Shown here piece after piece: positions 35,929 to 57,326 of a DNA stretch of 64,000 bases. The notes beneath the pieces were generated by a model, which was given only the letters and a program-made list of their open reading frames with translations, was not told the DNA's origin and ran no database searches. The stretch lies in the NCBI RefSeq assembly GCF_015493435.1, contig NZ_WGDD01000032.1:26-64025 (forward strand), given 5' to 3'. The stretch's first letter is position 1. Every line of letters starts with the position of its first letter. A program made the position numbers and the translations under genes. This DNA is from Sulfurovum sp. GTDB taxonomy: Bacteria > Campylobacterota > Campylobacteria > Campylobacterales > Sulfurovaceae.

Positions 35929-36345
35929 ATGTATAAACTTTTCTTAGCGTTCATTGCCCTGACTGCCCTTCTTGCGGCAGAAGCCACCATGGTCAAAGAC
36001 AGCCGGCACGGTCTGATGTGGGAAGACACACCGCACGTCAGAGAGACCAAGGTCACACAGCCGCGGGCAAAAGAATACTGCAGCGAACTCAAACTGGGCG
36101 GATTTGACAACTGGAGACTGCCGACGATCCATGAACTGCTTACGATCGTTGACTATCATCGTGTTTCTCCAGCTCTTCCCAAAGCATTCTCTTACGTGGA
36201 AGATGAATCCTTTTACTGGACAAAAACACATGTTGCCGATGAGGATGATGCATTCTGGGGTGTGAATTTCAAACGCGGCGCAAGCAGCAAGGCATCTCAG
36301 TACTATGACCGCTATGTCCGTTGTGTCCGTGATTTGAAAAAATAA
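35929..36345 (+). CDS. Secreted DUF1566/Lcl-type domain protein
   Basis: Signal peptide, GLMWED, YCSELKLGGFDNWRLPTIHEL, FYWTKT, YVRCVR. Confidence 0.85.
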   Translation: MYKLFLAFIALTALLAAEATMVKDSRHGLMWEDTPHVRETKVTQPRAKEYCSELKLGGFDNWRLPTIHELLTIVDYHRVSPALPKAFSYVEDESFYWTKTHVADEDDAFWGVNFKRGASSKASQYYDRYVRCVRDLKK

Positions 36346-36382: not shown

Positions 36383-36772
36383 TCAGTCTTCTTTGAAATA
36401 GAGGGAGAGCTTCTCTGTAAACGTATTGATGTCATAGGGTTTGAGAATAAAATCATTCGCGCCCATTTTTCGGAACTCTATTTCATCGAGTCCGTCAACC
36501 GTAATGATGAGCACCGGCAGGTTATCCATAGATTTATCGGCTCTGATCTCCTGAAGTATTTCCCTGCCGCTTTTCCCTGGCAGGTGCAGATCAAGCAGAA
36601 CCATATCGATCTGGGGCTCTCCCGACGACAGCATCTGCAAGGCTTCGTCTCCGTCATCTGTCGACACGACCGTGGCATTTATGATCCTGGAAAGGATCGT
36701 TTCAATGAGCTGGATATTGAAGGTGTCATCCTCAACGATCAGTATATTCTTGCTTATATTTTTAAATTCCAT
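36383..36772 (-). CDS. Stand-alone response regulator receiver protein
   Basis: ILIVEDD, VLLDLHLPGKSG, GANDFILKP. Confidence 0.9.
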   Translation of the reverse strand: MEFKNISKNILIVEDDTFNIQLIETILSRIINATVVSTDDGDEALQMLSSGEPQIDMVLLDLHLPGKSGREILQEIRADKSMDNLPVLIITVDGLDEIEFRKMGANDFILKPYDINTFTEKLSLYFKED

Positions 36773-37041
36773 TCTTTCCCTTTCTAATATATCTCCGGCT
36801 ATTATATATCATTTAAAATAAAATCATCATATTTCCTATGGAGGGATTTGACTCATAGTTATTTCTGATTAAAAATTTGATATACTGCCTCTACTCGGAT
36901 CATGCCATAGAATACCGGTCTTCAGCATATCGCAGGTATGCACCAAACAGGCACTTACAGCATGTTGGCCATTTAAGTGTATCATCCGGGATAAAATAAA
37001 GGGTACCTCTAATCATAGGTGCCCTAAAACGGAAGCGTGTA

Positions 37042-38874
37042 ATGCTACAACTTTTTCAACAGCTTTTTGGGAAAAAGCCCCATACCATACAGCTTCATAT
37101 CTCTTCAGCCAACGGTTTTCATCTTCGGCCCGTTGCGGAATTCGTCAACACGGCAAAAACATTCGCCTGTGACATCAGTGCCTTGCACCAGCACAAAAGC
37201 GTCAGTGCCAAAAGTGTCAATGCGCTGCTTTCCCTCGGGCTTGAAAAGGGGGACAGCTTTACACTGCTTGCCCGGGGCAAAGATGCCAAGGTGGCCACAG
37301 AAACACTTCAGGCACTCTTTGCACGTTTGATGCAGGAGGACAAAGAGGTCAGCACATTGGGCAAAGAGACCAAAGTCTATGACGGACAAATCATAGAGGG
37401 GGAGATTATTTCCAGAGGCGTGGTCATTGCACCTGTCTGCCGTTATGCGGAACGCGAATTTGCCACAGAAGCCAGGCTGGACTTTTCAGAAGCGCTTGCA
37501 AAAAGTTTGGATGAGCTGGAAATACTTTACCTTGCGCACAAAGAGGAGGAAAACGGCAGTATCTATCTTGCCCAGAAAGCACTTTTGCATGCTATAGCAG
37601 ACGATCTTGACTCATTTGAAACGTTTGAACTGACCATTGCAGAAGCGTCTGCCCATCTTACGGGAAGCAAAATGGCATCCAAGATCATAGACTATCAAGA
37701 TATTCTCCGGCGTGTCAAAAACCATATGGGGATCAAAACAGAAATGATCCTTCCTGAAACTTCCGCCATTCTTTTAGCCGAAGATCTTCTTCCCAGTCAG
37801 ATAACGCAACTTCGCAGCAGCCGTGTTGAGGGGGTGGTACTCAAGGAAACCACCCTGACATCACATACCGCCATTTTGCTGCGTGCTGCGGGTATTCCCT
37901 CGCTTATCGCCGACTACAGTACGGTGGAAGAGCACAGCAGGGTCATTCTTGATGCCAACAGCGGTATGATAGTGTCAAAACCGAGCGAAAAGGATCTTAC
38001 CGAAGCAGAAAAACGCAAAACAGAGGACAGAAAGCAAAGAAACATTGCTGCAAACAAACGTTTTGAAAAAGCACTGACCCGCACACAAAAACAGATTCAT
38101 ATCCTATCCAACGTCACCGATATCGATTCGGCAAAAGAAGCCAGGGCAGAAGGGGCGGAAGGGATTGGACTTTTGAGGACCGAATTTCTTTTTAAAAACA
38201 GAAAACCTTCCCTGGAAGAGCAAACAAAGGCGTACACAGAGATCTTTTCCTGTTTTGAAAATATTACCGTACGTACCCTGGATGTAGGCGGAGACAAAAA
38301 ACTGCCCTATCTCACGCTGCAGGAAGAGGACAACCCCTTCCTCGGCATACGGGGTATACGCCTGTTCAAAACACATCCACAGCTGATGGAAGAGCAGCTG
38401 CATGCTATCTTTCTGGCTGCCAATGGACGCCCGATCAAAGTGATGTTCCCCATGGTCAGCACCGTCGAAGAGTTCATGCACGCCAAAGCGTTTGCTTTCC
38501 GGACAGCGGAAAAATATGACCTTGACATTTCCGCTATGCTTTTCGGCATCATGGTAGAAGTACCTTCCGTACTCTTTTTGATCAAAAATTTCAACAGGGT
38601 CACGGACTTTTACTCCATCGGGACCAACGATCTCACACAATATTTGTTCGCCATAGAAAGAACCCACCCTTCGCTCAAAGTCGATGAACACTCTTCCGTA
38701 GTATTTGACGCCATCAAAACAGTCATTGACCAGGCAGACAAGCCGGTCAGCATCTGCGGAGAACTGGCTGCCGACCCTAAAGCTGTAGGGACACTGCTGA
38801 AGATCGGTATTGAGACACTGAGTGTATCACCCAAACGCATTGCAGCCACCAAAGAGGAGATCAGACATGTTTAG
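37042..38874 (+). CDS. PTS HPr-Enzyme I fusion (PEP-protein phosphotransferase)
   Basis: HPr motifs GFHLRP and AKSVNALLSLG; EI motifs TSHTAIL, GIGLLRTEF, RTLDVGGDK, NPFLGIRGIR, SIGTNDLTQY, ICGELA. Confidence 0.95.
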   Translation: MLQLFQQLFGKKPHTIQLHISSANGFHLRPVAEFVNTAKTFACDISALHQHKSVSAKSVNALLSLGLEKGDSFTLLARGKDAKVATETLQALFARLMQEDKEVSTLGKETKVYDGQIIEGEIISRGVVIAPVCRYAEREFATEARLDFSEALAKSLDELEILYLAHKEEENGSIYLAQKALLHAIADDLDSFETFELTIAEASAHLTGSKMASKIIDYQDILRRVKNHMGIKTEMILPETSAILLAEDLLPSQITQLRSSRVEGVVLKETTLTSHTAILLRAAGIPSLIADYSTVEEHSRVILDANSGMIVSKPSEKDLTEAEKRKTEDRKQRNIAANKRFEKALTRTQKQIHILSNVTDIDSAKEARAEGAEGIGLLRTEFLFKNRKPSLEEQTKAYTEIFSCFENITVRTLDVGGDKKLPYLTLQEEDNPFLGIRGIRLFKTHPQLMEEQLHAIFLAANGRPIKVMFPMVSTVEEFMHAKAFAFRTAEKYDLDISAMLFGIMVEVPSVLFLIKNFNRVTDFYSIGTNDLTQYLFAIERTHPSLKVDEHSSVVFDAIKTVIDQADKPVSICGELAADPKAVGTLLKIGIETLSVSPKRIAATKEEIRHV

Positions 38875-40255
38875 TCTTTTGCAAAAGATCGGCAAGGCAC
38901 TCATGACCCCTATTGCAGTATTGCCGGTTGCGGCACTGCTGCTGCGTCTGGGTTTTGGAGATATTTTCGACGGGCAGACCGCCCTCATTATGAAAAGTGC
39001 CGGAGAGACGGTGTTCGGCAACCTCGATCTGCTTTTTGGTATTGGTATTGCCTACGGACTGGCCAAGAACCACGATGGTGCCGCGGCACTTTCCGGTGCC
39101 ATCGGTGTGCTCATCGCCAAGGCCGTGTATGTCAGCATTGACAAAGATGTCAACATGGGAGTCTTTGTCGGGATCATCATCGGTGTCCTTGCCGGAACGC
39201 TCTACAACCGTTTTCACAATATCAGACTGCCGGAATTTCTCGGTTTTTTCGGAGGCAAACGTTTTGTTCCCATCATTACCTCTATTGCCGCTATATTTGT
39301 AGGTATACTTGCCGGATATTTCTGGCCTTATGTCCAAAACGGCATTGATGCTTTCTCCAATATGATCATCGGGCTTCATGAGTTCGGAACCTTCCTTTAC
39401 GGTGTACTCAACCGTCTGCTCATTCCACTGGGGCTGCATCATATTCTCAACTCGATCTTCTGGTTCCAGCTCGGAGAATATACCTATGTCAAGAACGGTG
39501 TGGAAATGGTAGCCAATGGAGATCTGCACCGTTTCTTTGCCGGAGACCCTACTGCCGGAATCTATATGTCGGGTTTTTATGTCGTGATGATGTTCGGACT
39601 GCCGGCCATGGCCCTGGCGATCTACCTCAACACGCCAAAAGCCTATCGGGTCAAAGCAGGTGCCATTCTTGCAGGGGTAGCTTTCACCTCCTTTTTGACC
39701 GGCATTACGGAACCGATGGAATTTCTTTTCCTCTTTGCTGCCCCGCAGCTTTTTATCCTGCATGCCGTTTTGACAGGCTTGGCACTTGCCACGGCACAAA
39801 TGCTCGATATTCATGCGGGATTCGGTTTTTCTGCAGGCTTTATCGACTATGTCATCAATTATAAACTGGCGACCAATCCCATTTTGATTTTACCGCTGGG
39901 TGCCGTGTTTGCAGTGATCTATTTCGTCTCAAGCTACTACCTGATCAAACTGCTTAAACTCAAAATCATGGAAACAGAACTCGCCGATGATACAAAAAAA
40001 GAGAACCCAAATACCTCTTCGGAAGCGGAAGCATTCATCGCAGCACTGGGAGGCAGAGAGAACATTCTGAACACCGATGCCTGTATCACCCGCCTGCGTA
40101 TGAATGTAAATGACAGCAGTTCCCTGGAAGACAAGGACTTTACAGCCTTGGGAGCCAAAGGGGTCATACGGCCGGACAAAGGCTCGATACAGATCATTCT
40201 GGGAACCAAAGCAGAAAAAGTGGCAGAAAAGATCAGAGATGTGCTGACCCGATAA
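38867..40255 (+). CDS. nagE: PTS N-acetylglucosamine-type EIICB
   Basis: LQKIGKALM.P.AVLP.A, GGKRFVP, LNRLLIPLGLHH, GDLHRFFAGDPTAG, TGITEP.EF; EIIB DACITRLR; start overlaps the EI stop. Confidence 0.9.
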   Translation: MFSLLQKIGKALMTPIAVLPVAALLLRLGFGDIFDGQTALIMKSAGETVFGNLDLLFGIGIAYGLAKNHDGAAALSGAIGVLIAKAVYVSIDKDVNMGVFVGIIIGVLAGTLYNRFHNIRLPEFLGFFGGKRFVPIITSIAAIFVGILAGYFWPYVQNGIDAFSNMIIGLHEFGTFLYGVLNRLLIPLGLHHILNSIFWFQLGEYTYVKNGVEMVANGDLHRFFAGDPTAGIYMSGFYVVMMFGLPAMALAIYLNTPKAYRVKAGAILAGVAFTSFLTGITEPMEFLFLFAAPQLFILHAVLTGLALATAQMLDIHAGFGFSAGFIDYVINYKLATNPILILPLGAVFAVIYFVSSYYLIKLLKLKIMETELADDTKKENPNTSSEAEAFIAALGGRENILNTDACITRLRMNVNDSSSLEDKDFTALGAKGVIRPDKGSIQIILGTKAEKVAEKIRDVLTR

Positions 40256-40315
40256 ACCCCGGGAAATCCTTGTTCTCCTGAAACCAATATGCTGCCTCTT
40301 CCAAAGTAGCGCCGA

Positions 40316-40348
40316 GGTAATACTGGGGTAATAGTCCTATCTTATAAT
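40316..40348 (+). promoter_or_regulatory. Promoter unit 1: direct-repeat operator plus -10 box
   Basis: GGTAAT-ACTGG-GGTAAT-AGTCCTATCT-TATAAT. Confidence 0.7.
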
Positions 40349-40434
40349 TTTGGGGTCGGACAGCAGATATCCGATACAATTATTTTATCCACAGTGATGC
40401 ATAGAACATTGCTGCGGTTTTCAAAGGACGAATC

Positions 40435-40638
40435 ATGAAAAAACTTCTTACATTTGCAAGCATACTTGCACTCACAAGCCTCTTTGCACATGCAAACGAT
40501 ATGGAAAAGGTAAAATCCACCATCACTATGGCGGCACAAGACACCACACAGGCAGCTCCAGGTGAAGAGCCACAGGTTCCGAAAACAAAACAGGACGACA
40601 AGAACAGCAGCGAAAAGGATCAGACAGAAAACAAATAA
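40435..40638 (+). CDS. Small secreted low-complexity protein (67 aa)
   Basis: AAAGGA RBS; signal peptide MKKLLTFASILALTSLFAHA with an AxA site; polar, probably disordered mature part. Confidence 0.75.
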   Translation: MKKLLTFASILALTSLFAHANDMEKVKSTITMAAQDTTQAAPGEEPQVPKTKQDDKNSSEKDQTENK

Positions 40639-40775
40639 CGTACCAAAAACATAACTCCTAAATTTTCCTTATACTCCTTCCCGGCAATATGCCGGGGCAT
40701 ATCATCCTTTTTCCATTTCATCATACCTTGTGATAGATATAGTAAACCAAAAACCGGCTGAAGTACGCTTCTGCA

Positions 40776-40808
40776 GGTAATAATAGAGTCACGGTATTGC
40801 ATTATACT
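40776..40808 (+). promoter_or_regulatory. Promoter unit 2 (second half-site degenerate)
   Basis: GGTAAT-AATAG-AGTCAC-GGTATTGCAT-TATACT, same spacing as units 1, 3 and 4. Confidence 0.55.
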
Positions 40809-40865
40809 TTAGGAGTTCGGATATTACCATATCCGAATCGGACAAACCACTCCAAAGGATAAACA

Positions 40866-40964
40866 ATGCAAGAACTTATTTTAGCCACCGTGCTTATTGC
40901 AATACTGACCCTCCCATTCAGTGTCTTCTTTACTACACTTATCTGGACCTTTCTATATCCGTAG
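40866..40964 (+). CDS. 32-aa single-pass membrane peptide (below the ORF-track cutoff)
   Basis: AAAGGA RBS; MQELILATVLIAILTLPFSVFFTTLIWTFLYP*; has its own promoter upstream. Confidence 0.6.
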   Translation: MQELILATVLIAILTLPFSVFFTTLIWTFLYP

Positions 40965-41000
40965 ACACAAAAAACCATTTATCTTAAATCATAGCAGACA

Positions 41001-41033
41001 GGTAATACTGAGGTAATACTCTTTCACTATAAT
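41001..41033 (+). promoter_or_regulatory. Promoter unit 3
   Basis: GGTAAT-ACTGA-GGTAAT-ACTCTTTCAC-TATAAT. Confidence 0.7.
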
Positions 41034-41035
41034 TT

Positions 41036-41146
41036 GACTGTATCAGATATTTGATACAGTCTTTTTCAAAGGAGTTCACAGAGAACATATAGCCCTCCAT
41101 TAGCCTTACTTCTTAAATTTTACTTACTCCGGCATTTTTGCCGGAG
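41036..41146 (+). ncRNA. Candidate sRNA, or an ORF-less relic of a small gene
   Basis: Follows promoter unit 3. 10-bp hairpin GACTGTATCA/TGATACAGTC, CU-rich middle, end hairpin CTCCGGCA/TGCCGGAG; no start codon after the AAAGGAG. Confidence 0.4.
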
Positions 41147-41242
41147 AGCAGATCGTATTCCACTTTTTTATACATCCCTGCACTTAAATCAAAATTTGCT
41201 ATAATCAATATAATTATTCACTATAATTCACAGGAGAGCCTA

Positions 41243-42046
41243 TTGAAACATTTTGTACTTATTGTTCTTTTGTTCCTTATGAATGGATGTTCAGTCAATG
41301 AACTGTTCCTATTTAATGAAATTAACCGGGTCACCCTTGTTAAATCCACTCCCGAGGTCAAACACTACAGAGCCTATTTTGCAAGAAGTGAGTTGAAACC
41401 GGTATGGAAAAAACAGAAATATCTTTTCCTCTATAATAGGCACAAGCATGATCTCGGCCTTGTACTGCGTCATCACAATACCTATACGCTGTACCATTTT
41501 TCCCACAGAAATCTTCCGGTGGTCAAACTGAAGATCACTTCCCGTCACAGAGAAAGACATATGCTGCATTCTTTTGCCAAGATAGGATACCGCACCGCAG
41601 ACTTGAAAGCACTCGGATACAGGACAAAAGTAGGGTTGCGCCGATACAAAGGGGTTAAAACACTCATGTTCGAAGTAAAAGATTATCACCGCCGGCCAAA
41701 AGAAAAAGAAGCAAATGAAAATCCAACACAGTCAACACAGGGACAGTCTGTTACTCTCATGGATACAGATTCGGAAAATACTCAGATAAAGCCTCTGTAC
41801 CCCTACTATCTGCACTACGCTTCGTCAGCTGAGCTGGACCGTTACCTCAAAGATCCCCAGACCGTCAAAACACTCAGCAGCGGCCAGCTGGCAAGCCTCA
41901 AAACACGTCTCTCCAAACTTCGGAAAGAAACACTTTTAACCGAAGGTTCCCTGGAAACACTGATAGAAGCGTACAAAAAGGACAAAGACCCTGAGATAAA
42001 AAAGCGTATCATGGTCTTGCTGAAACAGCAGCAGTCAAAGAACTAA
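41243..42046 (+). CDS. Hypothetical basic lipoprotein
   Basis: CAGGAG RBS, TTG start, lipobox LMNG-C; TGCTATAAT extended -10 at 41197-41205. Confidence 0.75.
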   Translation: MKHFVLIVLLFLMNGCSVNELFLFNEINRVTLVKSTPEVKHYRAYFARSELKPVWKKQKYLFLYNRHKHDLGLVLRHHNTYTLYHFSHRNLPVVKLKITSRHRERHMLHSFAKIGYRTADLKALGYRTKVGLRRYKGVKTLMFEVKDYHRRPKEKEANENPTQSTQGQSVTLMDTDSENTQIKPLYPYYLHYASSAELDRYLKDPQTVKTLSSGQLASLKTRLSKLRKETLLTEGSLETLIEAYKKDKDPEIKKRIMVLLKQQQSKN

Positions 42047-43089
42047 CCCATAATACGGGAAAGATCCAGGCGGATCTCCGTTCCCTGATGCACCTGGCTT
42101 TTAACTTCTATGCCGATATGCATTTCATCACAAAGTTTTTTCACGATATGCATCCCGATCCCTATGCCTCTCTCCTGTTCCTTGTAATAACGCCTGAATA
42201 CTTTTGAAGGTTCCTCAATACCTTTGCCTGTGTCTTTGATCGACAGTATCGTACCGCTGAACACAATAAAAACTTCTCCTGATGTTTTGTTGTACTTGCC
42301 TGCATTACTCAGGAGATTATCAAGTATCCGTATGAACGCATCTCTGTTTGTTACGATCTTAACTGCCGGAACATCGATGTGATAGGCAACATCCGAATAC
42401 AGTACCTGAAAATAAGAAACCCTTTCCCGGGTCAGCGTCTGAAGTTCGACATATTCTACCTGGGTACGTGCTTCCTGCAAAAAGACTTGTAAATTATTTT
42501 GGAGAGAAAGAATGGTTTCAATATTGTTTTCCACCCTTTGAATCTTCGGATTGGGACCGATCTCTTTTTTAAAAAGCTGAAAATTGATCTTCATCGAGGT
42601 AAGCGGTGTGTTGAAATCATGCAGAATATCTTTTACAAATTCTTCATTCAGACGCAGTGCCCTGTGCAGAGGCAACAGGGCATAAATGGAAAATAAAAAC
42701 GAAATAAGTGCTGCAACCAGGGAATAAAGCAGAAATCTCTTCTCCAGAAGTACTTTTATCTCCTGAATATGTGCTTCGTATTTGGTTCTGGGATAGACCA
42801 CTTTCATGAGAGATTTCTTGACATTCGGCAGTGCAAAATAACTGATGAAATCGTTATCCTTGTACAGAATATTTTCTTCTGTATCTTTTCCCTTGTCGAC
42901 AAAATCCGTTTTCAAGCCTTCACACTGCACCGTATAGGCACATAGTTTCATTTCTATTTCAATCTTTTTTTCAAGCTCGATCTTTTTAACTCTGAATTCA
43001 TACCAGAAATTAATAGCCAGCAGTATTTCGAGCAGTATCAGAAAAATAAAAAAACTTTTGACAAAAGACTCTACCTCATACGTTTTCAA
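42043..43089 (-). CDS. Sensor histidine kinase
   Basis: Two TM helices, H-box ILHDFNTPL, N-box NLLSNAGKY, DTGKGI, G.GIGMHIV. Confidence 0.95.
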   Translation of the reverse strand: MKTYEVESFVKSFFIFLILLEILLAINFWYEFRVKKIELEKKIEIEMKLCAYTVQCEGLKTDFVDKGKDTEENILYKDNDFISYFALPNVKKSLMKVVYPRTKYEAHIQEIKVLLEKRFLLYSLVAALISFLFSIYALLPLHRALRLNEEFVKDILHDFNTPLTSMKINFQLFKKEIGPNPKIQRVENNIETILSLQNNLQVFLQEARTQVEYVELQTLTRERVSYFQVLYSDVAYHIDVPAVKIVTNRDAFIRILDNLLSNAGKYNKTSGEVFIVFSGTILSIKDTGKGIEEPSKVFRRYYKEQERGIGIGMHIVKKLCDEMHIGIEVKSQVHQGTEIRLDLSRIMG

Positions 43090-43711
43090 TCATATACCCC
43101 TGCCCCCTGATATTTCTGATCTCGATACCCAGTTTGTTTTTCAGTTTTGCCAGATTGACCCTTAATGCATTGGCACTCGGCTGTTCAAGCATATCCATGA
43201 GGGTATAGCTGCTGACAATTTTATTTTGTTCCGTGATCAGACTGTGAAAAAGATTATGCTGTACTTCTCCGAGAATAACTGTTTTCCCCTCTTTCTCTAT
43301 GACTCGTGAAACCGGATCATAGCGAATATCGCCAAGAACGATCCATTGGCCCGTTCGTTCATATTTGTTCTTGATACGGATGATCAGTTCTTCGGGATCG
43401 AAAGGTTTTTTAATATAATCTTCCGCACCGATCTCAAACCCTCTGGAAATTGAATTGATATCCGTCAATGCTGTAATATAGATCGCAGGGGTATCATCTC
43501 CCGCTTCTCTGAGTGCGGAAAGGACATCAAAGCCGTCCGTGTCAGGCACATTGATATCTAAAATATAAAGATCATACACCGTAGGAAATGTCAAATCGAA
43601 CACTTCGGTACCGCGATGAGCCTTATCGACATCGTATCCTTCATATTCCAGCAGCTCTTTCAGGCTGTCACACAGTATTTTGTCATCTTCAAGCAATAAT
43701 ATTTTCATCAT
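43076..43711 (-). CDS. OmpR/PhoB-family response regulator
   Basis: LLLEDD, ILDINVP, GAEDYIKKPF, C-terminal winged helix LRVNLAKLK...IRGQGY. Confidence 0.95.
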   Translation of the reverse strand: MMKILLLEDDKILCDSLKELLEYEGYDVDKAHRGTEVFDLTFPTVYDLYILDINVPDTDGFDVLSALREAGDDTPAIYITALTDINSISRGFEIGAEDYIKKPFDPEELIIRIKNKYERTGQWIVLGDIRYDPVSRVIEKEGKTVILGEVQHNLFHSLITEQNKIVSSYTLMDMLEQPSANALRVNLAKLKNKLGIEIRNIRGQGYMIENV

Positions 43712-43718
43712 AGTTCAT

Positions 43719-43751
43719 ACTATATAAGAAATGGCTTACCCAAACATTACC
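43719..43751 (-). promoter_or_regulatory. Promoter unit 4, upstream of the response regulator (likely autoregulatory, leaderless mRNA)
   Basis: Minus strand GGTAAT-GTTTG-GGTAAG-CCATTTCTTA-TATAGT; ATG 7 nt after the -10, with no SD. Confidence 0.65.
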
Positions 43752-43859
43752 TGAAGTTCTGAACCTATTTTTTTTTCTTTGGACTCTTCAAAACAATAAA
43801 AAAAATAACAAGTACAACAGCATAGGCTACGTAATGATAGATATTATCCCCCCGTGGCA

Positions 43860-44330
43860 TTATTTTACCTCCATGATCAGATCGGCACATTTTACGATCT
43901 TTATTGTTTTTTCTATTTCCCTGACGTCACTTTCATCGGAGACAATGACGGGAGTGACTATATCTTTGGCATGTTCGGTAATATAGGGCAGGTCAACCCT
44001 GATCACAGGATCGCCCGCCTTGATCTCGTCACCTTCGTTCGCAAGCCGTTCAAAGCCCTCTCCGTTCAGAGAAACCGTATCAAGACCGATATGGACCATC
44101 ACTTCCAGATCTTTGTCGCTTTTGATACTGTACGCGTGGTTGGTCGTAAATATCTTGGTTATTGTTCCGTCTATGGGAGCACAGAAAGTATTGGAAACCG
44201 GAATGACCGCAACACCGTCACCCACCATTTTAGCGGAAAAGACCTCATCGTCCACTTTTTCTATTTCTATGACCTGACCGTCTACCGGAGAAAGAATCTC
44301 TCTATTTTTTCGTTTTAAAAATCCAAACAC
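43860..44330 (-). CDS. PTS EIIA, glucose/GlcNAc family
   Basis: FSAKMVGDGVAV.P, FTTNHAY, VHIGLDTVSL.GEGF. Confidence 0.93.
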   Translation of the reverse strand: MFGFLKRKNREILSPVDGQVIEIEKVDDEVFSAKMVGDGVAVIPVSNTFCAPIDGTITKIFTTNHAYSIKSDKDLEVMVHIGLDTVSLNGEGFERLANEGDEIKAGDPVIRVDLPYITEHAKDIVTPVIVSDESDVREIEKTIKIVKCADLIMEVK

Positions 44331-44333
44331 TGT

Positions 44334-45461
44334 TTATCCTTTATTGTATTTCACTTCACCCTCGACAATAGTTGTTATGATACTGAAATCTTTATCAAAA
44401 ATGACTATGTCCGCAGCATAACCGTTTTCCAGCTTCCCTAGGTCCAATCCCAGTTTTTTCGCAGGTATGCAGGTGACAGCATTGACTGCCTCAATACGTG
44501 TCATATCGGAAACGTTCGTCATATTCCGAAGGGCCTCATTCAGTTTCAGAACAGAACCGGCCAATGTACCGTCCTGTAAAACAGCTTTGCCGTTTTCAAC
44601 ACTCACCGGCCTTCCTCCCAGATCGTAAGAACCGTTTTGCATACATCCTGCGCGCATAGCATCGGTAATGAGCATCAGTTTGTCACCTTTTATCCGGTGG
44701 GTCAGTTTCAGGACAGACGGATGTACATGCACCCTATCCGCAATAATGTCACAGGTAATATCTGAATCGAACACGGCACCGGTGATCCCCGGTTCTCTGT
44801 GAAAGCAGGGGTTCATTGCGTTAAAAAGATGTGTCGCATGGGTAATGCCCCATGCAAAACTTTCTTTACTCTGCTCAAAACTTGCATTGCTGTGCCCGAT
44901 ACTTAAAATAATATGGGGGAATTTCCCGGAAAGCATCCGGATAAATTTTTCCGCTCCTGCTATTTCCGGAGCCATCGTGATCATCCTGATCTGGTCGAGA
45001 TACGGCGCGATGAGTTCAACGCTGGGTTCACGAATATACTGTTTATCCTGTGCACCGTGTTTTTCCGGGTTCAAAAAAGGCCCTTCAAGGTGAACACCTA
45101 TGACCCTGGCACCCTTTACAAGGGAGGCGTGCTGTTTTACATTTTGTAAAGCATTCTCAATAGCAGATGTTGACATCGTCATGGTAGTAGCAAGGAAAGA
45201 AGTAGTACCCGTCTGAACCAGGGTTTCAGATATGGTCTGAAGAGCCTCCGGTGTAGCATCCATCACATCAGCACCGCCTGAACCATGTATATGCAGGTCT
45301 ATGAAACCCGCAGAGACATACTGCCCTTTGGCATCGATCACTTCGATGCCGCTTAGATTCCGCATATCACACACCGCAACGATCGTTTTATCAAAAAGAA
45401 GGATCTTCTCTTCCGTGATTTGATCGTTGACAATCAGTTTACCATTTACAATCGCTTTGAT
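44334..45461 (-). CDS. nagA: N-acetylglucosamine-6-phosphate deacetylase; apparent ATC start
   Basis: GFIDLHIHG, HLEGPFL, GHSNA, THLFNAM, LITDAM, LAGSVL; the frame extends upstream to SD-preceded ATC AAA GCG ATT GTA AAT GGT (xKAIVNG). Confidence 0.9.
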   Translation of the reverse strand: MKAIVNGKLIVNDQITEEKILLFDKTIVAVCDMRNLSGIEVIDAKGQYVSAGFIDLHIHGSGGADVMDATPEALQTISETLVQTGTTSFLATTMTMSTSAIENALQNVKQHASLVKGARVIGVHLEGPFLNPEKHGAQDKQYIREPSVELIAPYLDQIRMITMAPEIAGAEKFIRMLSGKFPHIILSIGHSNASFEQSKESFAWGITHATHLFNAMNPCFHREPGITGAVFDSDITCDIIADRVHVHPSVLKLTHRIKGDKLMLITDAMRAGCMQNGSYDLGGRPVSVENGKAVLQDGTLAGSVLKLNEALRNMTNVSDMTRIEAVNAVTCIPAKKLGLDLGKLENGYAADIVIFDKDFSIITTIVEGEVKYNKG

Positions 45462-45500: not shown

Positions 45501-47039
45501 CTATGCATTCAAATGCTCTTTTAGCACGCGTTTGAGCACTTTGCCTGTAGCATTTTTGGGCAGTTCATCAATAATATGTATCTGTTTTGGAATCTTGAAA
45601 TTTGCAAGATGCTCCCTCATGTGTGCCTTCAGGCCCGACTCGCTGTAACTGTCTTTTTCTGCTTCAAGCTCAATATAGGCAACAGGTATTTCGCCGCTTT
45701 TCTCGTCTTTCATACCAATCACCGCAGAAGCGGAAACTCCGTCAAAAGCATCGATAATCTCTTCAATTTCACGCGGATAAATATTGATCCCTTTGGAAAT
45801 AATAAGATCTTTTTTCCTATCTACGATAAAAAGAAAACCTTCTTCATCCATGTATCCCATATCTCCTGTCAAAAGCCAGTCATTTACAATGGTTTCCCTG
45901 GTTGCTTCGGGACGCTTGAAATACCCCTGCATAACATGGTCGCCTTTGACAATAATATCTCCGATCTGCCCGTGAGGAAGCTCGTTCATTTCTTCATCAA
46001 CGATTTTGATCTCATACCCGTAGGCTGCCGTACCTACTGAACCTGCTTTCTGTTTTTTCAGTGTGTTCACGCAGACAACAGGACTTGCCTCACTCAGACC
46101 ATAGCCTTCAAGCAGTTTGGCCCTTTTGAACTTTTTTGCCATAGCATCAAGGGTTTTAGGCTGTAAGGCAGATGCCCCGGAAATAAAGGCACGTATATTG
46201 TTGAACCATAAAAAATACCACGGAAGCTTTGCTTTTGCCAGCGCATTGTACACATTGGGTATACCAAAGAAAAGTGTAACCCGTTTTGTCAGTACCTGTT
46301 TAAAAATATTGGAGAAAGGCTGCAGTGATTTTATGATCACCATACTTCCCCCGACATACAGAGGCATGATCACCCCGACCGTAAAGGTAAAAGAGTGGAA
46401 CATGGGCAGAAATACAATAACACGGTCTTTAGGTTTTACTTTGATCAGTTTTCTTGCAAACTCAATATTGGAAAGCAGGTTTTTATTGCTGAGCATCGCC
46501 CCTTTTGGTTTTCCGGTCGTGCCGGAAGTATAGATCAATACTGCCGTATCGTCAAGACCTCTCACAACATGGGCCGTCTCGGCAGATGTTGCCAAAGCTT
46601 CTGAAAAACTGACATTTTTTTCATCCAGCGGGGGTGAAGCACCTTCCCAGACAAGCAGTTGGCATTGAACCTGTGCATTCGACCTGTTCACAACTTCTGC
46701 ATGGACGGTTGAAGCAATCAGTACCGTACTCTCGCTGTCCTTGAGAATATAACTGAGTTCTTCCTCTTTGAGGAAGGTATTGACAGGGACAGTGATCGCA
46801 CCTATTTTGGATACAGCAAATACAGTATAGATGAATTCCGGAGAATTGCGCAGGAAGAGTGCGACCTTGTCGCCTTCCCTGATGCCTTTTTGAGACAAAA
46901 AGGCGGCGAACCTGTCAATCTTTTCAAGCAGGACACCATACGTGATCTTTTCATCATCAACAAAAAGGGCGACCTTGCGTCTGTGTCTTTGTGCCTGAGC
47001 GAACAGAAACTCATAAAAATTACTGTAGGGGTACTCCAT
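45501..47039 (-). CDS. fadD: Long-chain fatty acid--CoA ligase (AMP-binding family)
   Basis: YTSGTTGKPKGA, EGYGLSEASP, TGDMGY, DRKKD, NATGKVLK; start set at MEYPYS. Confidence 0.85.
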   Translation of the reverse strand: MEYPYSNFYEFLFAQAQRHRRKVALFVDDEKITYGVLLEKIDRFAAFLSQKGIREGDKVALFLRNSPEFIYTVFAVSKIGAITVPVNTFLKEEELSYILKDSESTVLIASTVHAEVVNRSNAQVQCQLLVWEGASPPLDEKNVSFSEALATSAETAHVVRGLDDTAVLIYTSGTTGKPKGAMLSNKNLLSNIEFARKLIKVKPKDRVIVFLPMFHSFTFTVGVIMPLYVGGSMVIIKSLQPFSNIFKQVLTKRVTLFFGIPNVYNALAKAKLPWYFLWFNNIRAFISGASALQPKTLDAMAKKFKRAKLLEGYGLSEASPVVCVNTLKKQKAGSVGTAAYGYEIKIVDEEMNELPHGQIGDIIVKGDHVMQGYFKRPEATRETIVNDWLLTGDMGYMDEEGFLFIVDRKKDLIISKGINIYPREIEEIIDAFDGVSASAVIGMKDEKSGEIPVAYIELEAEKDSYSESGLKAHMREHLANFKIPKQIHIIDELPKNATGKVLKRVLKEHLNA

Positions 47040-47040
47040 T

Positions 47041-48225
47041 TTAGAACTCGTATGCCACACTCAATGTTGTCAAGACGGCACCTCCTCCGTTAAATGATCC
47101 GCCGTTGTTCAGAACAGGGTTCGCATTGACACCCTTTGGCATACTGACAGGATCTTTGGAGTCAACCAAAAGTGCCGCACCCCAGGAAAGGTTCTGGGTT
47201 TGCTGGTATCTGAATCCCATGGAAAAGATCTTTGCATCACTGTCAGGCAGTTCAAAACCTAAATTTTCAACAGGCACAGGTGTTTCGTCGATCGCAAATC
47301 CCATCATCATGGTGATTTTATCCATCACCATCGTAGCACCGATCCTGAAGGTATTGGTATCCTGCCAGTTTTTAGGTGTCACAGGAAGAGGGGTACCTAC
47401 AAATTCCAGATTTTTATAGGTTGACCAGTATGTCCTTTCATAAACCGCTTCAAGTGTAAATGTATTGGCCCATGTTTTGCTCGCTGCGATATTTAGCGCA
47501 GCTGGCAAAGGCACCGTTACACTGGCATCCATAGCATGCCCGTTGATCGTCGCAGTTCCCTCTTCTTTCAAGTCCACATTCGAACGGTAGGTTGCTGCAA
47601 GCGTAATATCTGCAGTCGGTTTGTAGCTGAGTGCCAGATTATATCTGAACTCGACCGTATCTCCATCCATATTGACAGTCAGAGGCATCCCGATACTTGT
47701 AGCATCGCTTTTCACAACGCCGGTACTGTATACAAGTCCTACACCTGCACCGATACTGAGATTATCCATTACTTTGTAGGAAACAGAAGGGTTCAATTCC
47801 AGTATCTTGAGTGTAAACTCCTGTGCAAAAGCTTTCTGATACGGTGTATTCCATTTCTTGGTCAATCCTCCCGGTGCGGTTAGACTCACACCCCATCTGA
47901 AATCGCCTATCGCATTGGATACATAATGCAAATTGGGAATGACAATATTCTCTGTTTCCGTATTTCCGCTGTAAGGCGCCATCAGCACATAGTCAGTTTG
48001 CGGCAGATGCGCCAGGGTCAGTCCGCCTTCTATGTACTGTCTGTCTTCCATAAAAACCATATTGGCCGGGTTGAAATAAGCTGTATCCGCACCGCTTGTA
48101 TGTGCCACATACGCTGCACCCAGCGCCATAGAATTAAGAGACTGTTCAGGTATCTTGTACCCGCCTGCCATAAGTATGCTTCCCGCCACGGCACTCAGTG
48201 CCAGCCCTTTTACGATCGTTTTCAT
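47041..48225 (-). CDS. FadL/OmpP1/TodX-family outer-membrane transporter
   Basis: Signal peptide, hatch motif GYKIPEQS...LGAAY...AYFNPANM, PDSD, C-terminal YEF; start set at MKTIVK. Confidence 0.88.
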   Translation of the reverse strand: MKTIVKGLALSAVAGSILMAGGYKIPEQSLNSMALGAAYVAHTSGADTAYFNPANMVFMEDRQYIEGGLTLAHLPQTDYVLMAPYSGNTETENIVIPNLHYVSNAIGDFRWGVSLTAPGGLTKKWNTPYQKAFAQEFTLKILELNPSVSYKVMDNLSIGAGVGLVYSTGVVKSDATSIGMPLTVNMDGDTVEFRYNLALSYKPTADITLAATYRSNVDLKEEGTATINGHAMDASVTVPLPAALNIAASKTWANTFTLEAVYERTYWSTYKNLEFVGTPLPVTPKNWQDTNTFRIGATMVMDKITMMMGFAIDETPVPVENLGFELPDSDAKIFSMGFRYQQTQNLSWGAALLVDSKDPVSMPKGVNANPVLNNGGSFNGGGAVLTTLSVAYEF

Positions 48226-48251
48226 TTTCTTCTCCTTGTTTTTTATGTCCA

Positions 48252-48309
48252 TCACATGTTGAACTTGATTCAATATCCGCCAAGGATCCTCAATCAAGTT
48301 CAAGGTGAC
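48252..48309. repeat. Intergenic palindromic element
   Basis: TTGAACTTGATT...AATCAAGTTCAA 12-bp arms with inner ATCC/GGAT and outer TCAC/GTGA. Confidence 0.7.
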
Positions 48310-49782: not shown

Positions 49783-49857
49783 GGCCCCTTCGTCTAGCGG
49801 TTAGGATCCATGGTTTTCATCCATGTTACAGGAGTTCGAGTCTCCTAGGGGTCACCA
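49783..49857 (+). tRNA. tRNA-Glu(TTC), copy 1
   Basis: GGCCCCTT...CATGG-TTTTCAT-CCATG...GTTCGAGT...GGGGTCACCA. Confidence 0.96.
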
Positions 49858-49885: not shown

Positions 49886-49960
49886 GGCCCCTTCGTCTAG
49901 CGGTTAGGATCCATGGTTTTCATCCATGTTACAGGAGTTCGAGTCTCCTAGGGGTCACCA
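49886..49960 (+). tRNA. tRNA-Glu(TTC), copy 2
   Basis: Identical 75-nt sequence to copy 1, after a 28-bp spacer. Confidence 0.96.
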
Positions 49961-56345: not shown

Positions 56346-57326
56346 ATGAGTAACTATATACCGCCATACGCCATTACATCAAAGATATTGTTGTTGACCA
56401 ATGAGATCACCGAGATGATCACCGAAGTCAGCTCCATCAAAAAAGACAGGACGACACCAATACTACGTAAAAAGAACCGTATCCGCTCCATAACCGGTTC
56501 TTTGCAGATAGAGGGTAATACCCTCAGTGAAGAGGAGGTAACAGCACTCATAGAGGGCAAAAGAGTTCTGGGAAGTGTACGGGAGATAGAGGAAGTCAAA
56601 GGTGCCATCAAATCATATGAGTTGATAGAAGAGTATGATGCTAAAAAGCTTGATGACTTGCTTTTGGCACATAAACGGATGATGGGTGGCATTTTGGAAA
56701 ATGCAGGACACTTTAGAAGTGGCAATGTCGGAGTATATGGCAAAGAGGGTGTCTCTCATGTTGCACCACCGCCATACCGTGTACCTGAGCTTATAGGCGA
56801 ACTGTTTGACTGGCTTGGCAAAACTAAAGAACACCCCTTGGTTGCTAGTTCAGTGTTTCATTATGAGTTTGAATTTATCCACCCTTTCAGTGATGGTAAT
56901 GGGCGTATAGGAAGACTCTGGCAGAGTGTGATACTGGGGAGTTTTCGGGATATTTTTTATTATGTACCTATAGAGAGTGTGGTCAAAGAGCATCAAAAGG
57001 CATATTATGAAGCCCTTGAAGCGGCAGGTAGTGTCGGTGAGAGTACACCTTTTGTAGAGTTTATGCTTGAAAGCATTCATCAATCTGTAAAAGAATTTCT
57101 CGAAGAATACCAAAAAAGTGACCATAAAAGTACCCTGAAAAGTGACCAGAAAATATATGAACTGATGAAAGAAGACCGTACGATCACGATCAAAGAACTT
57201 GCGCTAAGACTCAACATGAGTGAGTCGGGAATCAAAAAAATGATCAACAAACTCAAAAAAGAAGGAAAAATAGAACGGATCGGTAGTGCCAAAGGCGGAA
57301 AGTGGGAGGTGTTAGATGAAGTTTAA
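56346..57326 (+). CDS. Fic-family AMPylase (class II, internal inhibitory helix) with a C-terminal HTH
   Basis: HPFSDGNGRIGR; N-terminal SLQIEGN; ITIKELA.RL.MSESGIKK.I..LK..G. Confidence 0.93.
   Translation: MSNYIPPYAITSKILLLTNEITEMITEVSSIKKDRTTPILRKKNRIRSITGSLQIEGNTLSEEEVTALIEGKRVLGSVREIEEVKGAIKSYELIEEYDAKKLDDLLLAHKRMMGGILENAGHFRSGNVGVYGKEGVSHVAPPPYRVPELIGELFDWLGKTKEHPLVASSVFHYEFEFIHPFSDGNGRIGRLWQSVILGSFRDIFYYVPIESVVKEHQKAYYEALEAAGSVGESTPFVEFMLESIHQSVKEFLEEYQKSDHKSTLKSDQKIYELMKEDRTITIKELALRLNMSESGIKKMINKLKKEGKIERIGSAKGGKWEVLDEV

What the first reader, a model, noticed from the sequence alone, without database searches (positions are those of the whole stretch)
37042..45461. Apparently complete N-acetylglucosamine PTS in a Campylobacterota genome
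Seen: HPr-EI fusion, EIICB, EIIA and NagA, with phosphoacceptor and catalytic motifs intact (GFHLRP, TSHTAIL, DACITRLR, VHIGLDT, HLEG/THLFNAM/TD). Established: Campylobacterota are generally described as lacking sugar PTS systems, and Sulfurovum-like organisms are chemolithoautotrophs. No nagB or NagC/NagR regulator is in this window. Inference: amino-sugar salvage, with GlcNAc from peptidoglycan turnover or host chitin converted to GlcN-6P for cell-wall synthesis instead of catabolism. Probably acquired horizontally.
Basis: partly seen in the sequence, partly recalled or inferred. Interest (0 to 1): 0.75.

Follow-up and report, generated by a model that had tools for sequence, protein, structure and literature searches.

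The report
Amino-sugar uptake system of Sulfurovum
A sulfur-oxidising, CO2-fixing vent bacterium (Sulfurovum) carries a complete, intact phosphotransferase system plus deacetylase for taking up the amino sugar N-acetylglucosamine, but this is an old, family-wide and already annotated trait, not a recent foreign acquisition.

Summary
The window encodes an HPr-Enzyme I fusion (37042-38874), an EIICB permease (38867-40255), a Crr-like EIIA (43860-44330) and NagA (44334-45461). All phospho-acceptor and catalytic residues are intact.

The contig is a core chromosomal segment of Sulfurovum (Campylobacterota), between the nuo operon and nfo. The same locus, in the same place, occurs in at least 80 species-level Sulfurovaceae genomes. 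These include the cultured S. riftiae, S. lithotrophicum, NBC37-1, XGS-02 and CS9.

The PTS proteins diverge in step with a flanking core gene and have the same GC content as core genes. No outside relative of the permease exceeds about 51% identity. A recent horizontal transfer is therefore not supported. An ancient one, into the family ancestor, remains possible.

The permease scores best as NagE-type, above PtsG-type, and EIIA is translationally adjacent to nagA. The substrate is therefore most likely GlcNAc.

No nagB or nagC lies in the window or within 10 kb in 80 genomes. Whole genomes could not be searched, so salvage versus catabolism stays open.

The genes are annotated in public records, and one 2019 paper mentions the PTS in passing. 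No functional study was found. Verdict: real, moderately interesting, a new member of a known kind.

The parts
36876..36886 (+). Promoter-like extended -10 element (TTTGATATACT) about 155 nt upstream of ptsHI
   Evidence: Read directly. The same TTTG(N)TATACT motif lies 20-35 nt upstream of the ptsHI start in many orthologous loci. This is a consensus match only and is not proof of function.
37042..38874 (+). ptsHI fusion: HPr domain (about 14-99, His27), then full Enzyme I (EIN about 117-311 with His275, linker helix 316-340, PEP-binding TIM barrel 351-609 with Cys572)
   Evidence: Pfam and NCBIfam. PDB alignments to E. coli and S. carnosus EI. AF2 pLDDT 83.9 and Foldseek matches to full-length EI over about 542 columns. 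Catalytic motifs conserved in 64 orthologues.
38867..40255 (+). nagE-like EIICB permease (462 aa): EIIC with GLHHI and GITEPMEF motifs, EIIB with Cys406 (DACITRLR). Translationally coupled to ptsHI by an 8-nt overlap.
   Evidence: TIGR01998 (nag) 522 bits against TIGR02002 (glc) 436 bits. 46.5% identity to E. coli NagE against 41.8% to PtsG. 70-86% identity in 80 Sulfurovaceae genomes.
40435..40638 (+). 67-aa ORF with a signal peptide, weakly conserved in a few relatives. Not known to belong to the PTS.
   Evidence: Called as a gene on L001-L003. tblastx 33-41% in L005, L024, L026, L032 and L055. Sequence.
41138..42046 (+). Sulfurovum-specific lipoprotein (orfX) of unknown fold. Part of a three-gene module (orfX + RR + HK) inserted between nagE and crr in roughly a quarter of species.
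   Evidence: No Pfam or NCBIfam hit. 34 homologues, with a conserved lipobox Cys51. AF2 pLDDT 79, no PDB fold match. Co-occurs with HK/RR.
42043..43089 (-). Sensor histidine kinase (HisKA + HATPase_c, two predicted TM segments with a short periplasmic loop of roughly 90 aa). Downstream of crr on the same strand.
   Evidence: Present in 22 of 80 species-level loci. A regulatory link to the PTS is inferred from position only.
43076..43711 (-). OmpR-family response regulator (receiver + Trans_reg_C), overlapping the kinase gene
43860..44330 (-). crr-like EIIA of the glucose family (156 aa; His65 and phospho-acceptor His80)
   Evidence: PF00358 4e-49 and TIGR00830 156 bits, above the cut-off of 97.5. 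Alignment to E. coli IIA-Glc. 52% identity to Crr against 45% to the IIA domain of NagE. Both His residues conserved in 49 orthologues.
44334..45461 (-). nagA, GlcNAc-6-phosphate deacetylase (375 aa if read from ATC 45461). Stop codon is 3 nt before the GTG start of crr.
   Evidence: TIGR00221 361 bits, above the cut-off of 226. PDB alignments over the full length. Metal and catalytic residues H57, H59, E126, H190, H211 and D267 conserved in 42 orthologues. ATC start. Junction.
45501..48303 (-). fadL-like outer-membrane channel (47041-48303) and long-chain fatty-acid-CoA ligase (45501-47060), co-directional and only 39 nt upstream of nagA. Probable co-transcription. This is context, not a PTS component.
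   Evidence: NCBIfam NF004837 585 bits, above the cut-off of 476; FadL 92 bits. Conserved next to nagA in about 37 of 47 loci.

Best explanation
The locus encodes a working phosphoenolpyruvate:sugar phosphotransferase system of the glucose family whose substrate is most likely N-acetylglucosamine, together with the first enzyme that processes the product.

The phosphoryl group passes along this chain:
1. PEP to His275 of the Enzyme I part of the fusion protein.
2. To His27 of the HPr domain on the same polypeptide.
3. To His80 of the separate Crr-like EIIA.
4. To Cys406 of the EIIB domain.
5. To GlcNAc as it crosses the membrane through EIIC.

NagA then deacetylates GlcNAc-6-P to GlcN-6-P plus acetate.

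Shown here: gene content, intact catalytic residues, strong purifying conservation, and operon-like coupling (ptsHI-nagE overlap; nagA-crr 3 nt apart).

Inferred:
- Substrate identity.
- The fate of GlcN-6-P. Most simply it enters UDP-GlcNAc synthesis (GlmM/GlmU) for peptidoglycan, lipooligosaccharide and protein glycans. That would be anabolic salvage of exogenous or turnover-derived amino sugar by an otherwise CO2-fixing organism.
- Regulation, possibly by the embedded two-component genes.

The system is an ancestral, vertically inherited trait of Sulfurovum/Sulfurovaceae. It is not a recent import.
For: - Domains and family scores.
- Catalytic residues aligned to solved structures.
- Full EI fold.
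- All catalytic motifs conserved in 42-78 species-level orthologues.
- NagE-type preferred over PtsG-type: TIGR01998 522 bits against 436 bits, and 46.5% against 41.8% identity. The nearest outside representatives that carry a name are all named GlcNAc-specific IIBC.
- nagA and crr are adjacent in 33 of 42 loci, and ptsHI and nagE in 65 of 72.
- Conserved position between nuoA and nfo in 80 species-level genomes, including a complete genome.
- Co-divergence with the flanking core gene, Mantel r 0.71-0.85, p<=0.0005.
- GC and GC3 like core genes.
- Present in cultured strains.
- No nagB or nagC in the window or in 1.26 Mb of flanks.
- The neighbouring fadL-fadD pair fits a theme of scavenging building blocks.
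Against: - There is no experimental or expression evidence: no RNA run holds the sequence.
- EIICB (522 bits against a cut-off of 553) and EI (311 against 342) fall just below NCBIfam's equivalog cut-offs, so specificity is not certified.
- Whole genomes could not be searched. A nagB or SIS-type deaminase elsewhere would turn salvage into catabolism.
- nagA begins with ATC in this organism, which may mean low expression.
- The co-divergence test used a linked gene, not a species tree.
- From my own knowledge, cultured Sulfurovum are described as strict chemolithoautotrophs.
Confidence: 0.7

Rival explanations
1. Catabolic or mixotrophic use. GlcNAc is taken up as a carbon, nitrogen or energy source. 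GlcN-6-P is deaminated to fructose-6-P by a NagB or SIS-type deaminase encoded elsewhere, and the acetate is assimilated. This is compatible with the best explanation up to NagA and differs only in the fate of the product.
For: - The pathway up to GlcN-6-P is complete.
- Sulfurovum MAGs are reported to encode hexosaminidase and complete gluconeogenesis (PMC11800652).
- Many loci come from epibionts or symbionts of tubeworms (L010, L058), and tubeworm tubes are chitinous (own knowledge). Chitin breakdown products should be available there.
- An acyl-CoA ligase lies next to nagA.
Against: - No nagB in the window or within 10 kb of the locus in 80 genomes.
- In classic nag operons nagB is linked to nagA (E. 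coli).
- The Kebrit MAGs lack key heterotrophy enzymes according to PMC11800652.
- From my own knowledge, cultured strains are described as strict autotrophs.
Confidence: 0.3
2. Primarily a sensory or regulatory PTS. GlcNAc flux through the system changes the phosphorylation state of EIIA/HPr. Directly or through the embedded two-component proteins, this signals contact with chitinous or mucous animal surfaces or with biofilm, and controls attachment genes. Nutrition would be secondary.
For: - A kinase/regulator pair follows crr on the same strand in 22 of 80 loci.
- A hybrid kinase (HATPase_c + receiver) sits inside the nagA-crr operon in four other species.
- A stand-alone receiver gene lies divergently upstream of ptsHI here.
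- EIIA is more Crr-like than NagE-IIA-like.
- No classical NagC/NagR regulator is present.
Against: - The two-component module is absent from most species. It looks like a variable insertion between two conserved gene pairs.
- A full permease plus NagA is not needed for sensing alone.
- No shared operator was sought or found.
- Regulatory PTSs typically lack permeases (as noted in PMC6702916).
Confidence: 0.15
3. The permease transports a different sugar (glucose, glucosamine or another hexosamine), and NagA serves only internal peptidoglycan recycling.
For: - EIICB is below the TIGR01998 cut-off and also scores 436 bits on the glucose model.
- It aligns well to E. coli PtsG structures.
- EIIA is Crr-like.
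- In divergent Sulfurovaceae lineages ptsHI-nagE is not next to nagA.
Against: - The Nag model outscores the Glc model by 87 bits.
- Identity to NagE is higher than to PtsG.
- The nearest outside representatives that carry a name are named GlcNAc-specific.
- Convergent linkage with nagA-crr holds in most species.
- From my own knowledge, Campylobacterota generally lack the phosphofructokinase needed to use glucose-6-P glycolytically.
Confidence: 0.1
4. Recent horizontal acquisition, or an assembly or binning artefact that places a foreign PTS on a Campylobacterota contig.
For: Well-studied Campylobacterota lack HPr/NPr (PMC7948535). The closest outside relatives of EIICB are from Beta- and Gammaproteobacteria and Clostridia.
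Against: - Same order on four independent assemblies and in a closed genome.
- Flanked by nuo, gap, pgk and nfo core genes.
- 80 species share the locus at one position.
- Co-divergence with a flanking core gene.
- Native GC content.
- Outside relatives are at most 51% identical.
Confidence: 0.03

Closest known systems
E. coli GlcNAc system: NagE (EIICBA) with general PtsH/PtsI, and the nagBACD operon
   Same: Same phosphorelay chemistry and the same glucose-family permease. Identities are 46.5% to NagE, 33% to NagA, 32% to EI and 40% to HPr. All catalytic residues are shared.
   Different: In the window, HPr and EI are fused into one protein and encoded next to the permease. EIIA is a separate Crr-like protein rather than the C-terminal domain of NagE. 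No nagB, nagC or nagD is linked. nagA is paired with crr.
E. coli IIA-Glc (Crr) serving EIICB permeases that lack their own IIA domain
   Same: EIIA is 52% identical to Crr, with both active-site histidines. It stands alone and must serve an EIICB without an IIA domain.
   Different: It is encoded with nagA rather than with ptsHI. No evidence was sought here for Crr's regulatory partners, such as adenylate cyclase or inducer exclusion targets.
Multiphosphoryl transfer proteins, e.g. Pseudomonas aeruginosa NagF (EIIA-HPr-EI) with NagE (EIICB), and E. coli FryA/PtsA (HPr-EI-EIIA). Recalled from my own knowledge, not tested here.
   Same: HPr and EI are fused and dedicated to one sugar-specific permease encoded alongside. 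JGI names some Sulfurovum orthologues 'multiphosphoryl transfer protein' or 'FPr'.
   Different: The Sulfurovum protein has only HPr + EI in that order, with no EIIA domain. The Pseudomonas cluster, as I recall it, also carries a regulator and a GlmS-like deaminase, which are not linked here.
GlcNAc-specific IIBC(A) of Chitinolyticbacter, Nitrincola and Clostridium (nearest non-Sulfurovum cluster representatives)
   Same: 48-51% identity over the full EIICB. NCBI names them N-acetylglucosamine-specific.
   Different: The organisms and domain layouts differ (501-660 aa, some with a fused IIA). None is close enough to be a donor.

Membership tests
PTS glucose-family permease, NagE subfamily (TIGR01998 / TC 4.A.1) | EIIC domain (PF02378) with the conserved GITE and HH motifs, followed by an EIIB domain with the phospho-acceptor Cys | tested here: met
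   PF02378 4e-71 and PF00367 1e-11. GLHHI, GITEPMEF and DACITRLR are aligned to E. coli PtsG structures and conserved in 78 orthologues.
PTS glucose-family permease, NagE subfamily (TIGR01998 / TC 4.A.1) | Score at or above the curated equivalog cut-off of the GlcNAc-specific model | tested here: not met
   TIGR01998 scores 522.5 bits against a cut-off of 553.2. It is nevertheless the best-scoring model, 87 bits above the glucose model. Membership of the NagE-like clade is therefore likely but not certified.
PTS glucose-family permease, NagE subfamily (TIGR01998 / TC 4.A.1) | Demonstrated PEP-dependent GlcNAc transport and phosphorylation | not testable with these tools
   This needs uptake assays or complementation.
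PTS Enzyme I (TIGR01417) | Three-part architecture (EIN with HPr-binding helical subdomain, phospho-His swivel domain, PEP-binding TIM barrel) with the His189 and Cys502 equivalents | tested here: met
   His275 and Cys572 align to E. coli His189 and Cys502. AF2 plus Foldseek align about 542 columns to full-length EI structures and to isolated EIN. Pfam PF05524 was not detected by sequence.
PTS Enzyme I (TIGR01417) | Score at or above the curated cut-off | tested here: not met
   311.4 bits against a cut-off of 341.7. The match covers model positions 113-538 only, and the N-terminal domain is divergent.
HPr phosphocarrier (TIGR01003 / PF00381) | HPr fold with active-site His in the GxHxRP motif, score above the cut-off | tested here: met
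   TIGR01003 scores 54.7 bits, above the cut-off of 47.9, and PF00381 gives 1.2e-19. G-F/V/L-H-L-R-P is present in 61 of 64 orthologues; the other three are not aligned at this point, i.e. gaps.
EIIA-Glc family (PF00358 / TIGR00830) | Two active-site histidines (E. coli H75 and H90) and score above the cut-off | tested here: met
   TIGR00830 scores 155.8 bits, above the cut-off of 97.5. H65 and H80 align to E. coli IIA-Glc and are conserved in 49 orthologues.
NagA, GlcNAc-6-P deacetylase (TIGR00221) | Amidohydrolase fold with metal ligands and catalytic Asp, score above the equivalog cut-off | tested here: met
   361.5 bits, above the cut-off of 225.65. HxH, E126, H190, H211 and D267 are aligned to B. 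subtilis and V. cholerae NagA and conserved in 42 orthologues. The canonical start codon is missing; ATC is used instead.
Classical nag regulon (nagE-nagBACD type) | Linked GlcN-6-P deaminase (NagB) and a NagC/NagR-type repressor | tested here: not met
   tblastn with E. coli NagB and NagC gave zero hits in the window and in 84 related loci. No GntR or ROK domain was found in the window ORFs scanned with Pfam; the nuo genes and a few short ORFs were not scanned. Presence elsewhere in the genome was not testable.
Horizontally acquired genomic island | Atypical composition, mobile-element flanks, patchy distribution, or phylogeny incongruent with the host | tested here: not met
   GC and GC3 are typical. 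The flanks are core genes. The locus is present in 80 species at one position. Distances correlate with those of a core neighbour.

The most novel reading that the evidence does not exclude
The GlcNAc PTS may be a family-defining adaptation of Sulfurovaceae to life on chitinous and mucous animal surfaces and in biofilms. Under this reading, these supposedly obligate chemolithoautotrophs routinely assimilate, and perhaps sense through the embedded two-component genes, amino sugars released from host tubes, cuticles or neighbouring cells. That would help explain why Sulfurovum is so often an epibiont, and it would blur the line between autotroph and heterotroph in vent primary producers.
Probability: 0.2. 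Interest if true: 0.65.

Novelty: new member of a known kind. Interest (0 to 1): 0.4.

Why it matters
Sulfurovum is among the most abundant primary producers at hydrothermal vents, cold seeps and sulfidic sediments, and it is treated as a strict CO2 fixer in ecosystem models.

A complete sugar PTS kept under purifying selection across the whole family is unusual, because the well-studied members of the phylum have no PTS at all. It implies that these organisms take up at least one organic compound.

If the uptake is real, three things follow:
- Carbon and nitrogen budgets and isotope-labelling studies at vents need to allow for amino-sugar assimilation.
- There is a concrete, testable molecular handle on epibiosis on chitinous hosts.
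- The compact HPr-EI fusion system can be tested in E. coli.

If the genes merely serve cell-wall recycling, the finding is ordinary.

Tried and rejected
- **Expression evidence.** A search for RNA-seq runs holding the permease gene found none. DNA runs are all hydrothermal-vent metagenomes.
- **Known RNA elements.** An Rfam scan of the whole window found only four tRNAs and nothing in the PTS leader or the 1-kb gap after nagE.
- **Promoters and terminators.** Scans were no better than shuffled sequence. Only the -10-like motif shared with orthologous loci was retained.
- **Linked amino-sugar genes in relatives.** I looked for nagB, nagK, chitinase and regulators in the variable segments of 80 related loci. 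These segments contain two-component proteins, Mla/MMPL lipid-transport genes, a trypsin-like protease, an AAA_14 ATPase, and in one MAG a GH25+M23 cell-wall hydrolase. No nag genes were found. Only about 20 of 441 unmatched ORFs were scanned with Pfam, but tblastn with E. coli NagB and NagC covered all the DNA.
- **orfX.** It has 34 homologues, all without Pfam domains. The AF2 model (pLDDT 79) has no PDB fold match at E<0.001. Its function stays unknown.
- **Donor search.** The 50%-identity representative library gave no relative above about 51% identity, so no donor can be named.
- **Literature.** Nine full-text searches found no paper analysing a Sulfurovum GlcNAc PTS. Barabote & Saier 2005 (PMC1306802) is not held.
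- **Rejected: contig not Campylobacterota.**
- **Rejected: EI truncated at its N-terminus.** This was suggested by the missing PF05524 hit and is contradicted by the structure model.
- **Rejected: nitrogen-PTS (PtsP/NPr/PtsN).** There is no GAF domain, EIIA is type 1 rather than type 2, and a permease is present.

Full report
**1. What is in the interval**

- **ptsHI, 37042-38874 (+).** This encodes a 610-aa fusion with three Pfam domains: PTS-HPr (residues 17-94), the phospho-histidine swivel domain (241-308) and the PEP-binding domain (340-609).
- **nagE-like EIICB, from ATG 38867.** The start sits inside the last codons of ptsHI (overlap ATGTTTAG, preceded by AAAGAGGAG). The gene encodes a 462-aa EIICB.
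- **nagA, 45461-44334 (-).** It ends 3 nt before the GTG start of crr.
- **crr-like EIIA, 44330-43860 (-).** This is a 156-aa EIIA of the glucose family.

Alignments to solved structures place every catalytic residue correctly:
- EI His275 and Cys572 match E. coli His189 and Cys502.
- EIIA His65 and His80 match IIA-Glc His75 and His90.
- EIIB Cys406 and the EIIC GITE and HH motifs match PtsG.
- The NagA HxH, Glu, His, His and Asp set matches B. subtilis and V. cholerae NagA.

Pfam did not detect the EI N-terminal, HPr-binding domain, and the NCBIfam EI model matched only from position 113. I therefore modelled the protein from an alignment of 32 orthologues. The model has pLDDT 83.9. It shows HPr, an alpha/beta plus four-helix EIN, the linker helix and the TIM barrel. 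Foldseek aligns about 542 columns to full-length EI structures and about 240-256 columns to isolated EIN domains. The phosphorelay is therefore complete on paper.

**2.

Between the two gene pairs lie four further genes:
- a 67-aa secreted ORF (40435-40638);
- a lineage-specific lipoprotein, here called orfX;
- a histidine kinase (42043-43089, -);
- an OmpR-type response regulator (43076-43711, -).

The kinase and regulator follow crr on the same strand.

Upstream of nagA, 39 nt away and co-directional, are a long-chain fatty-acid-CoA ligase and a FadL-type outer-membrane channel.

nagA has no canonical start at its conserved N-terminus. The homologous first codon is ATC, preceded by AAAGGAAG. 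The first GTG would remove 29 conserved residues. Among 47 orthologues that codon is ATG in 24, ATC in 12 and ATT in 3. Gene callers consequently report a truncated 343-aa NagA.

**3. Whose genome is it**

The identical permease occurs on five contigs from hydrothermal-vent assemblies, with the same gene order.

A scan of one genome per GTDB species returned 122 relatives. The best 80 are 70-86% identical. Nearly all are labelled Sulfurovum, Sulfurovaceae, or unclassified Campylobacterota/Epsilonproteobacteria. They include the closed genome of Sulfurovum sp. CS9.

Protein searches add the cultured S. riftiae, S. lithotrophicum, NBC37-1 and XGS-02.

One locus is labelled Sulfurimonas sp. Kbt 03. 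By the paper that described those MAGs it probably corresponds to a Sulfurovum species (this mapping is my inference).

The rest of the window is core chromosome: pgk, gap, argS, gmk, the nuo operon, dnaG, rnc and aroC.

**4. Vertical or horizontal**

Across the 80 species-level loci the following order recurs:
nuoA - rhodanese - AAA ATPase - (Lcl_C protein) - ptsHI - nagE - [variable] - crr - nagA - (fadD - fadL) - nfo.

- ptsHI was found in 68 loci, crr in 53 and nagA in 47. Most absences are contig ends.
- ptsHI directly precedes nagE in 65 of 72 cases, and nagA directly precedes crr in 33 of 42.
- In a few deeper-branching lineages (L057, L059, L071, L079, L082, L083) ptsHI-nagE stay together. 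In the four of these with about 10 kb of downstream sequence (L057, L059, L071, L079), crr-nagA are not within that 10 kb; in L082 and L083 the contig ends just after nagE.
- Pairwise distances of EIICB, HPr-EI, EIIA and NagA correlate strongly with those of the flanking core AAA gene (Mantel r 0.71-0.85, p<=0.0005).
- GC and GC3 of the PTS genes lie within the range of core genes.
- No transposase or integrase flanks the cluster in the window.
- In a library of 50%-identity representatives, the best full-length outside hits are 48-51% identical. Those that carry a name are GlcNAc-specific IIBC(A) proteins of Chitinolyticbacter, Nitrincola and Clostridium.

Together this points to a trait inherited from the common ancestor of the sampled Sulfurovaceae. 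It may have entered that ancestor by transfer, because well-studied Epsilonproteobacteria lack HPr/NPr (PMC7948535). The evidence here can neither show nor exclude that.

One caveat applies: the co-divergence test used a linked gene rather than an independent species tree.

**5. Substrate and mechanism**

The permease scores 522.5 bits on the GlcNAc-specific model, against 435.7 on the glucose model. It scores 469 on the E. coli NagE model, against 391 on the PtsG model. It is 46.5% identical to E. coli NagE and 41.8% to PtsG. It falls just below the curated NagE cut-off of 553.

The tight pairing of EIIA with nagA in most species is independent support for GlcNAc.

EIIA itself is more Crr-like (52%) than NagE-IIA-like (45%).

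All catalytic motifs are conserved in 42-78 species-level orthologues. This argues for a functioning system under selection.

The most likely mechanism is therefore the classical relay: PEP, then EI, then HPr (within the fusion), then EIIA, then EIIB, then GlcNAc-6-P, followed by deacetylation to GlcN-6-P.

**6. Fate of the product**

E. coli NagB and NagC give no tblastn hit in the window or in the 84 related loci, 1.26 Mb in total. Pfam scans of genes inserted in the cluster in other species found no nag genes.

A deaminase elsewhere cannot be excluded.

The adjacent fadL-fadD pair suggests a second scavenging function in the same gene string. That also fits a building-block-salvage lifestyle, but it is an inference.

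**7. Regulation**

No NagC, ROK-type or GntR-type regulator is present.

In 22 of 80 species a module of lipoprotein, response regulator and kinase is inserted between nagE and crr. In four others a hybrid kinase lies between crr and nagA.

This recurrent association may mean two-component control or signalling. However, the module is absent from most species, and the lipoprotein has no recognisable fold. I treat it as a hypothesis only.

A TTTG(N)TATACT extended -10-like motif precedes ptsHI here (36876-36886) and in many orthologous loci.

**8. What is already known**

- Public records annotate these genes. The permease is called 'PTS transporter subunit EIIC' or 'PTS system N-acetylglucosamine-specific IIC component'.
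- The fusion is called 'HPr family phosphocarrier protein', 'multiphosphoryl transfer protein', or, wrongly, 'PTS fructose transporter subunit IIBC'.
- A 2025 paper on Kebrit Deep Sulfurovum reports hexosaminidase but assigns GlcNAc use to other community members (PMC11800652).
- I found no paper that analyses or tests the system.

**9. Verdict**

The horizontal-transfer reading is not supported as a recent event, and the trait is family-wide and already annotated. It is a new, unstudied member of a well-known kind of system, with a compact HPr-EI fusion and a stand-alone Crr-like EIIA.

Its interest is ecological rather than mechanistic. It predicts amino-sugar uptake by organisms regarded as strict autotrophs, and this can be tested directly in cultured strains.

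Noticed in passing
window 45459-45461 (- strand); orthologues in L009, L011, L017, L021, L023, L025, L032, L044, L047, L055, L058, L070: nagA lacks a canonical start. The conserved first codon is ATC here (ATC in 12 and ATT in 3 of 47 orthologues, ATG in 24), with a good Shine-Dalgarno sequence upstream. The N-terminal residues are conserved through synonymous changes, so they appear to be translated. This suggests recurrent use of a weak ATY initiation codon. Gene callers output a truncated 343-aa protein. The fadD stop codon TAG (45501-45503) is in frame with nagA.
   Followed up: partly
window 45501-48303 (- strand): A FadL-type outer-membrane channel and a long-chain fatty-acid-CoA ligase lie co-directionally just upstream of nagA-crr (39-nt gap). 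They are conserved there in most Sulfurovum species. This is a second apparent organic-compound scavenging function in a chemolithoautotroph.
   Followed up: partly
window 41138-43711; L043 9981-11996, L046 12028-14073 and 14107-15954, L034 2570-4558, L027 5628-7607: Two-component genes are repeatedly embedded in the PTS locus. A lipoprotein + OmpR-type regulator + kinase module sits between nagE and crr in 22 of 80 species. A 615-680-aa hybrid kinase (HATPase_c + receiver) sits between crr and nagA in four others.
   Followed up: partly
L081 11634-14609: In one Sulfurovum MAG a 991-aa protein lies immediately downstream of the GlcNAc permease. It combines a GH25 muramidase domain, an M23 peptidase domain and Ig-like/CARDB domains, so it is a likely cell-wall hydrolase. 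This is a possible source of cell-wall-derived sugars from other bacteria.
   Followed up: no
window 35929-36345 (+); many loci, e.g. L006 7825, L009 7826: A small secreted protein with an Lcl_C (DUF1566) domain precedes ptsHI. In many species its stop codon is only 3 nt before the ptsHI start, implying co-transcription. In the window a stand-alone receiver gene (36383-36772, -) has been inserted between them.
   Followed up: no
L054 8720-9886 and L081 8725-9885: A secreted trypsin-like serine protease with a PPC domain is inserted on the opposite strand between ptsHI and nagE in two MAGs, breaking the usual overlap of the two genes.
   Followed up: no
public records of orthologues (P0304, P0313, P0292, P0301): The HPr-EI fusion is misnamed 'PTS fructose transporter subunit IIBC' in S. 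lithotrophicum and one MAG, and reduced to 'HPr family phosphocarrier protein' elsewhere. Enzyme I is therefore easy to miss in annotation-based surveys.
   Followed up: no
window 34106-35857 (- strand): A 583-aa AAA ATPase with a winged-helix domain is conserved (76-91% identity) next to the PTS in nearly all Sulfurovum loci. Its best NCBIfam hit is the anti-phage ATPase IteA, but far below the cut-off (103 bits against 510), so its role is unclear.
   Followed up: no
window 41138-42046 compared with alignment A2: The orfX lipoprotein of this organism lacks a central segment of roughly 60-100 residues that most of its 34 homologues have. The annotated ATG start (41279) falls just before the lipobox cysteine, so the true start is probably an upstream non-ATG codon.
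   Followed up: partly
window 49783-49854 and 49886-49957 (+); 56346-57326 (+): Two tandem tRNA genes have identical Rfam scores. A Fic/DOC-family protein with a C-terminal HTH lies nearby. Both are unrelated to the PTS.
   Followed up: no
L020 (JBEWPY010000040.1): This GenBank record is titled 'Sulfurimonas sp. isolate Kbt 03', but it shares the Sulfurovum-type synteny (NuoA 92%, AAA 85%). The paper describing the Kebrit MAGs names two Sulfurovum species and one Sulfurimonas, so the record title is probably a mislabel.
   Followed up: partly
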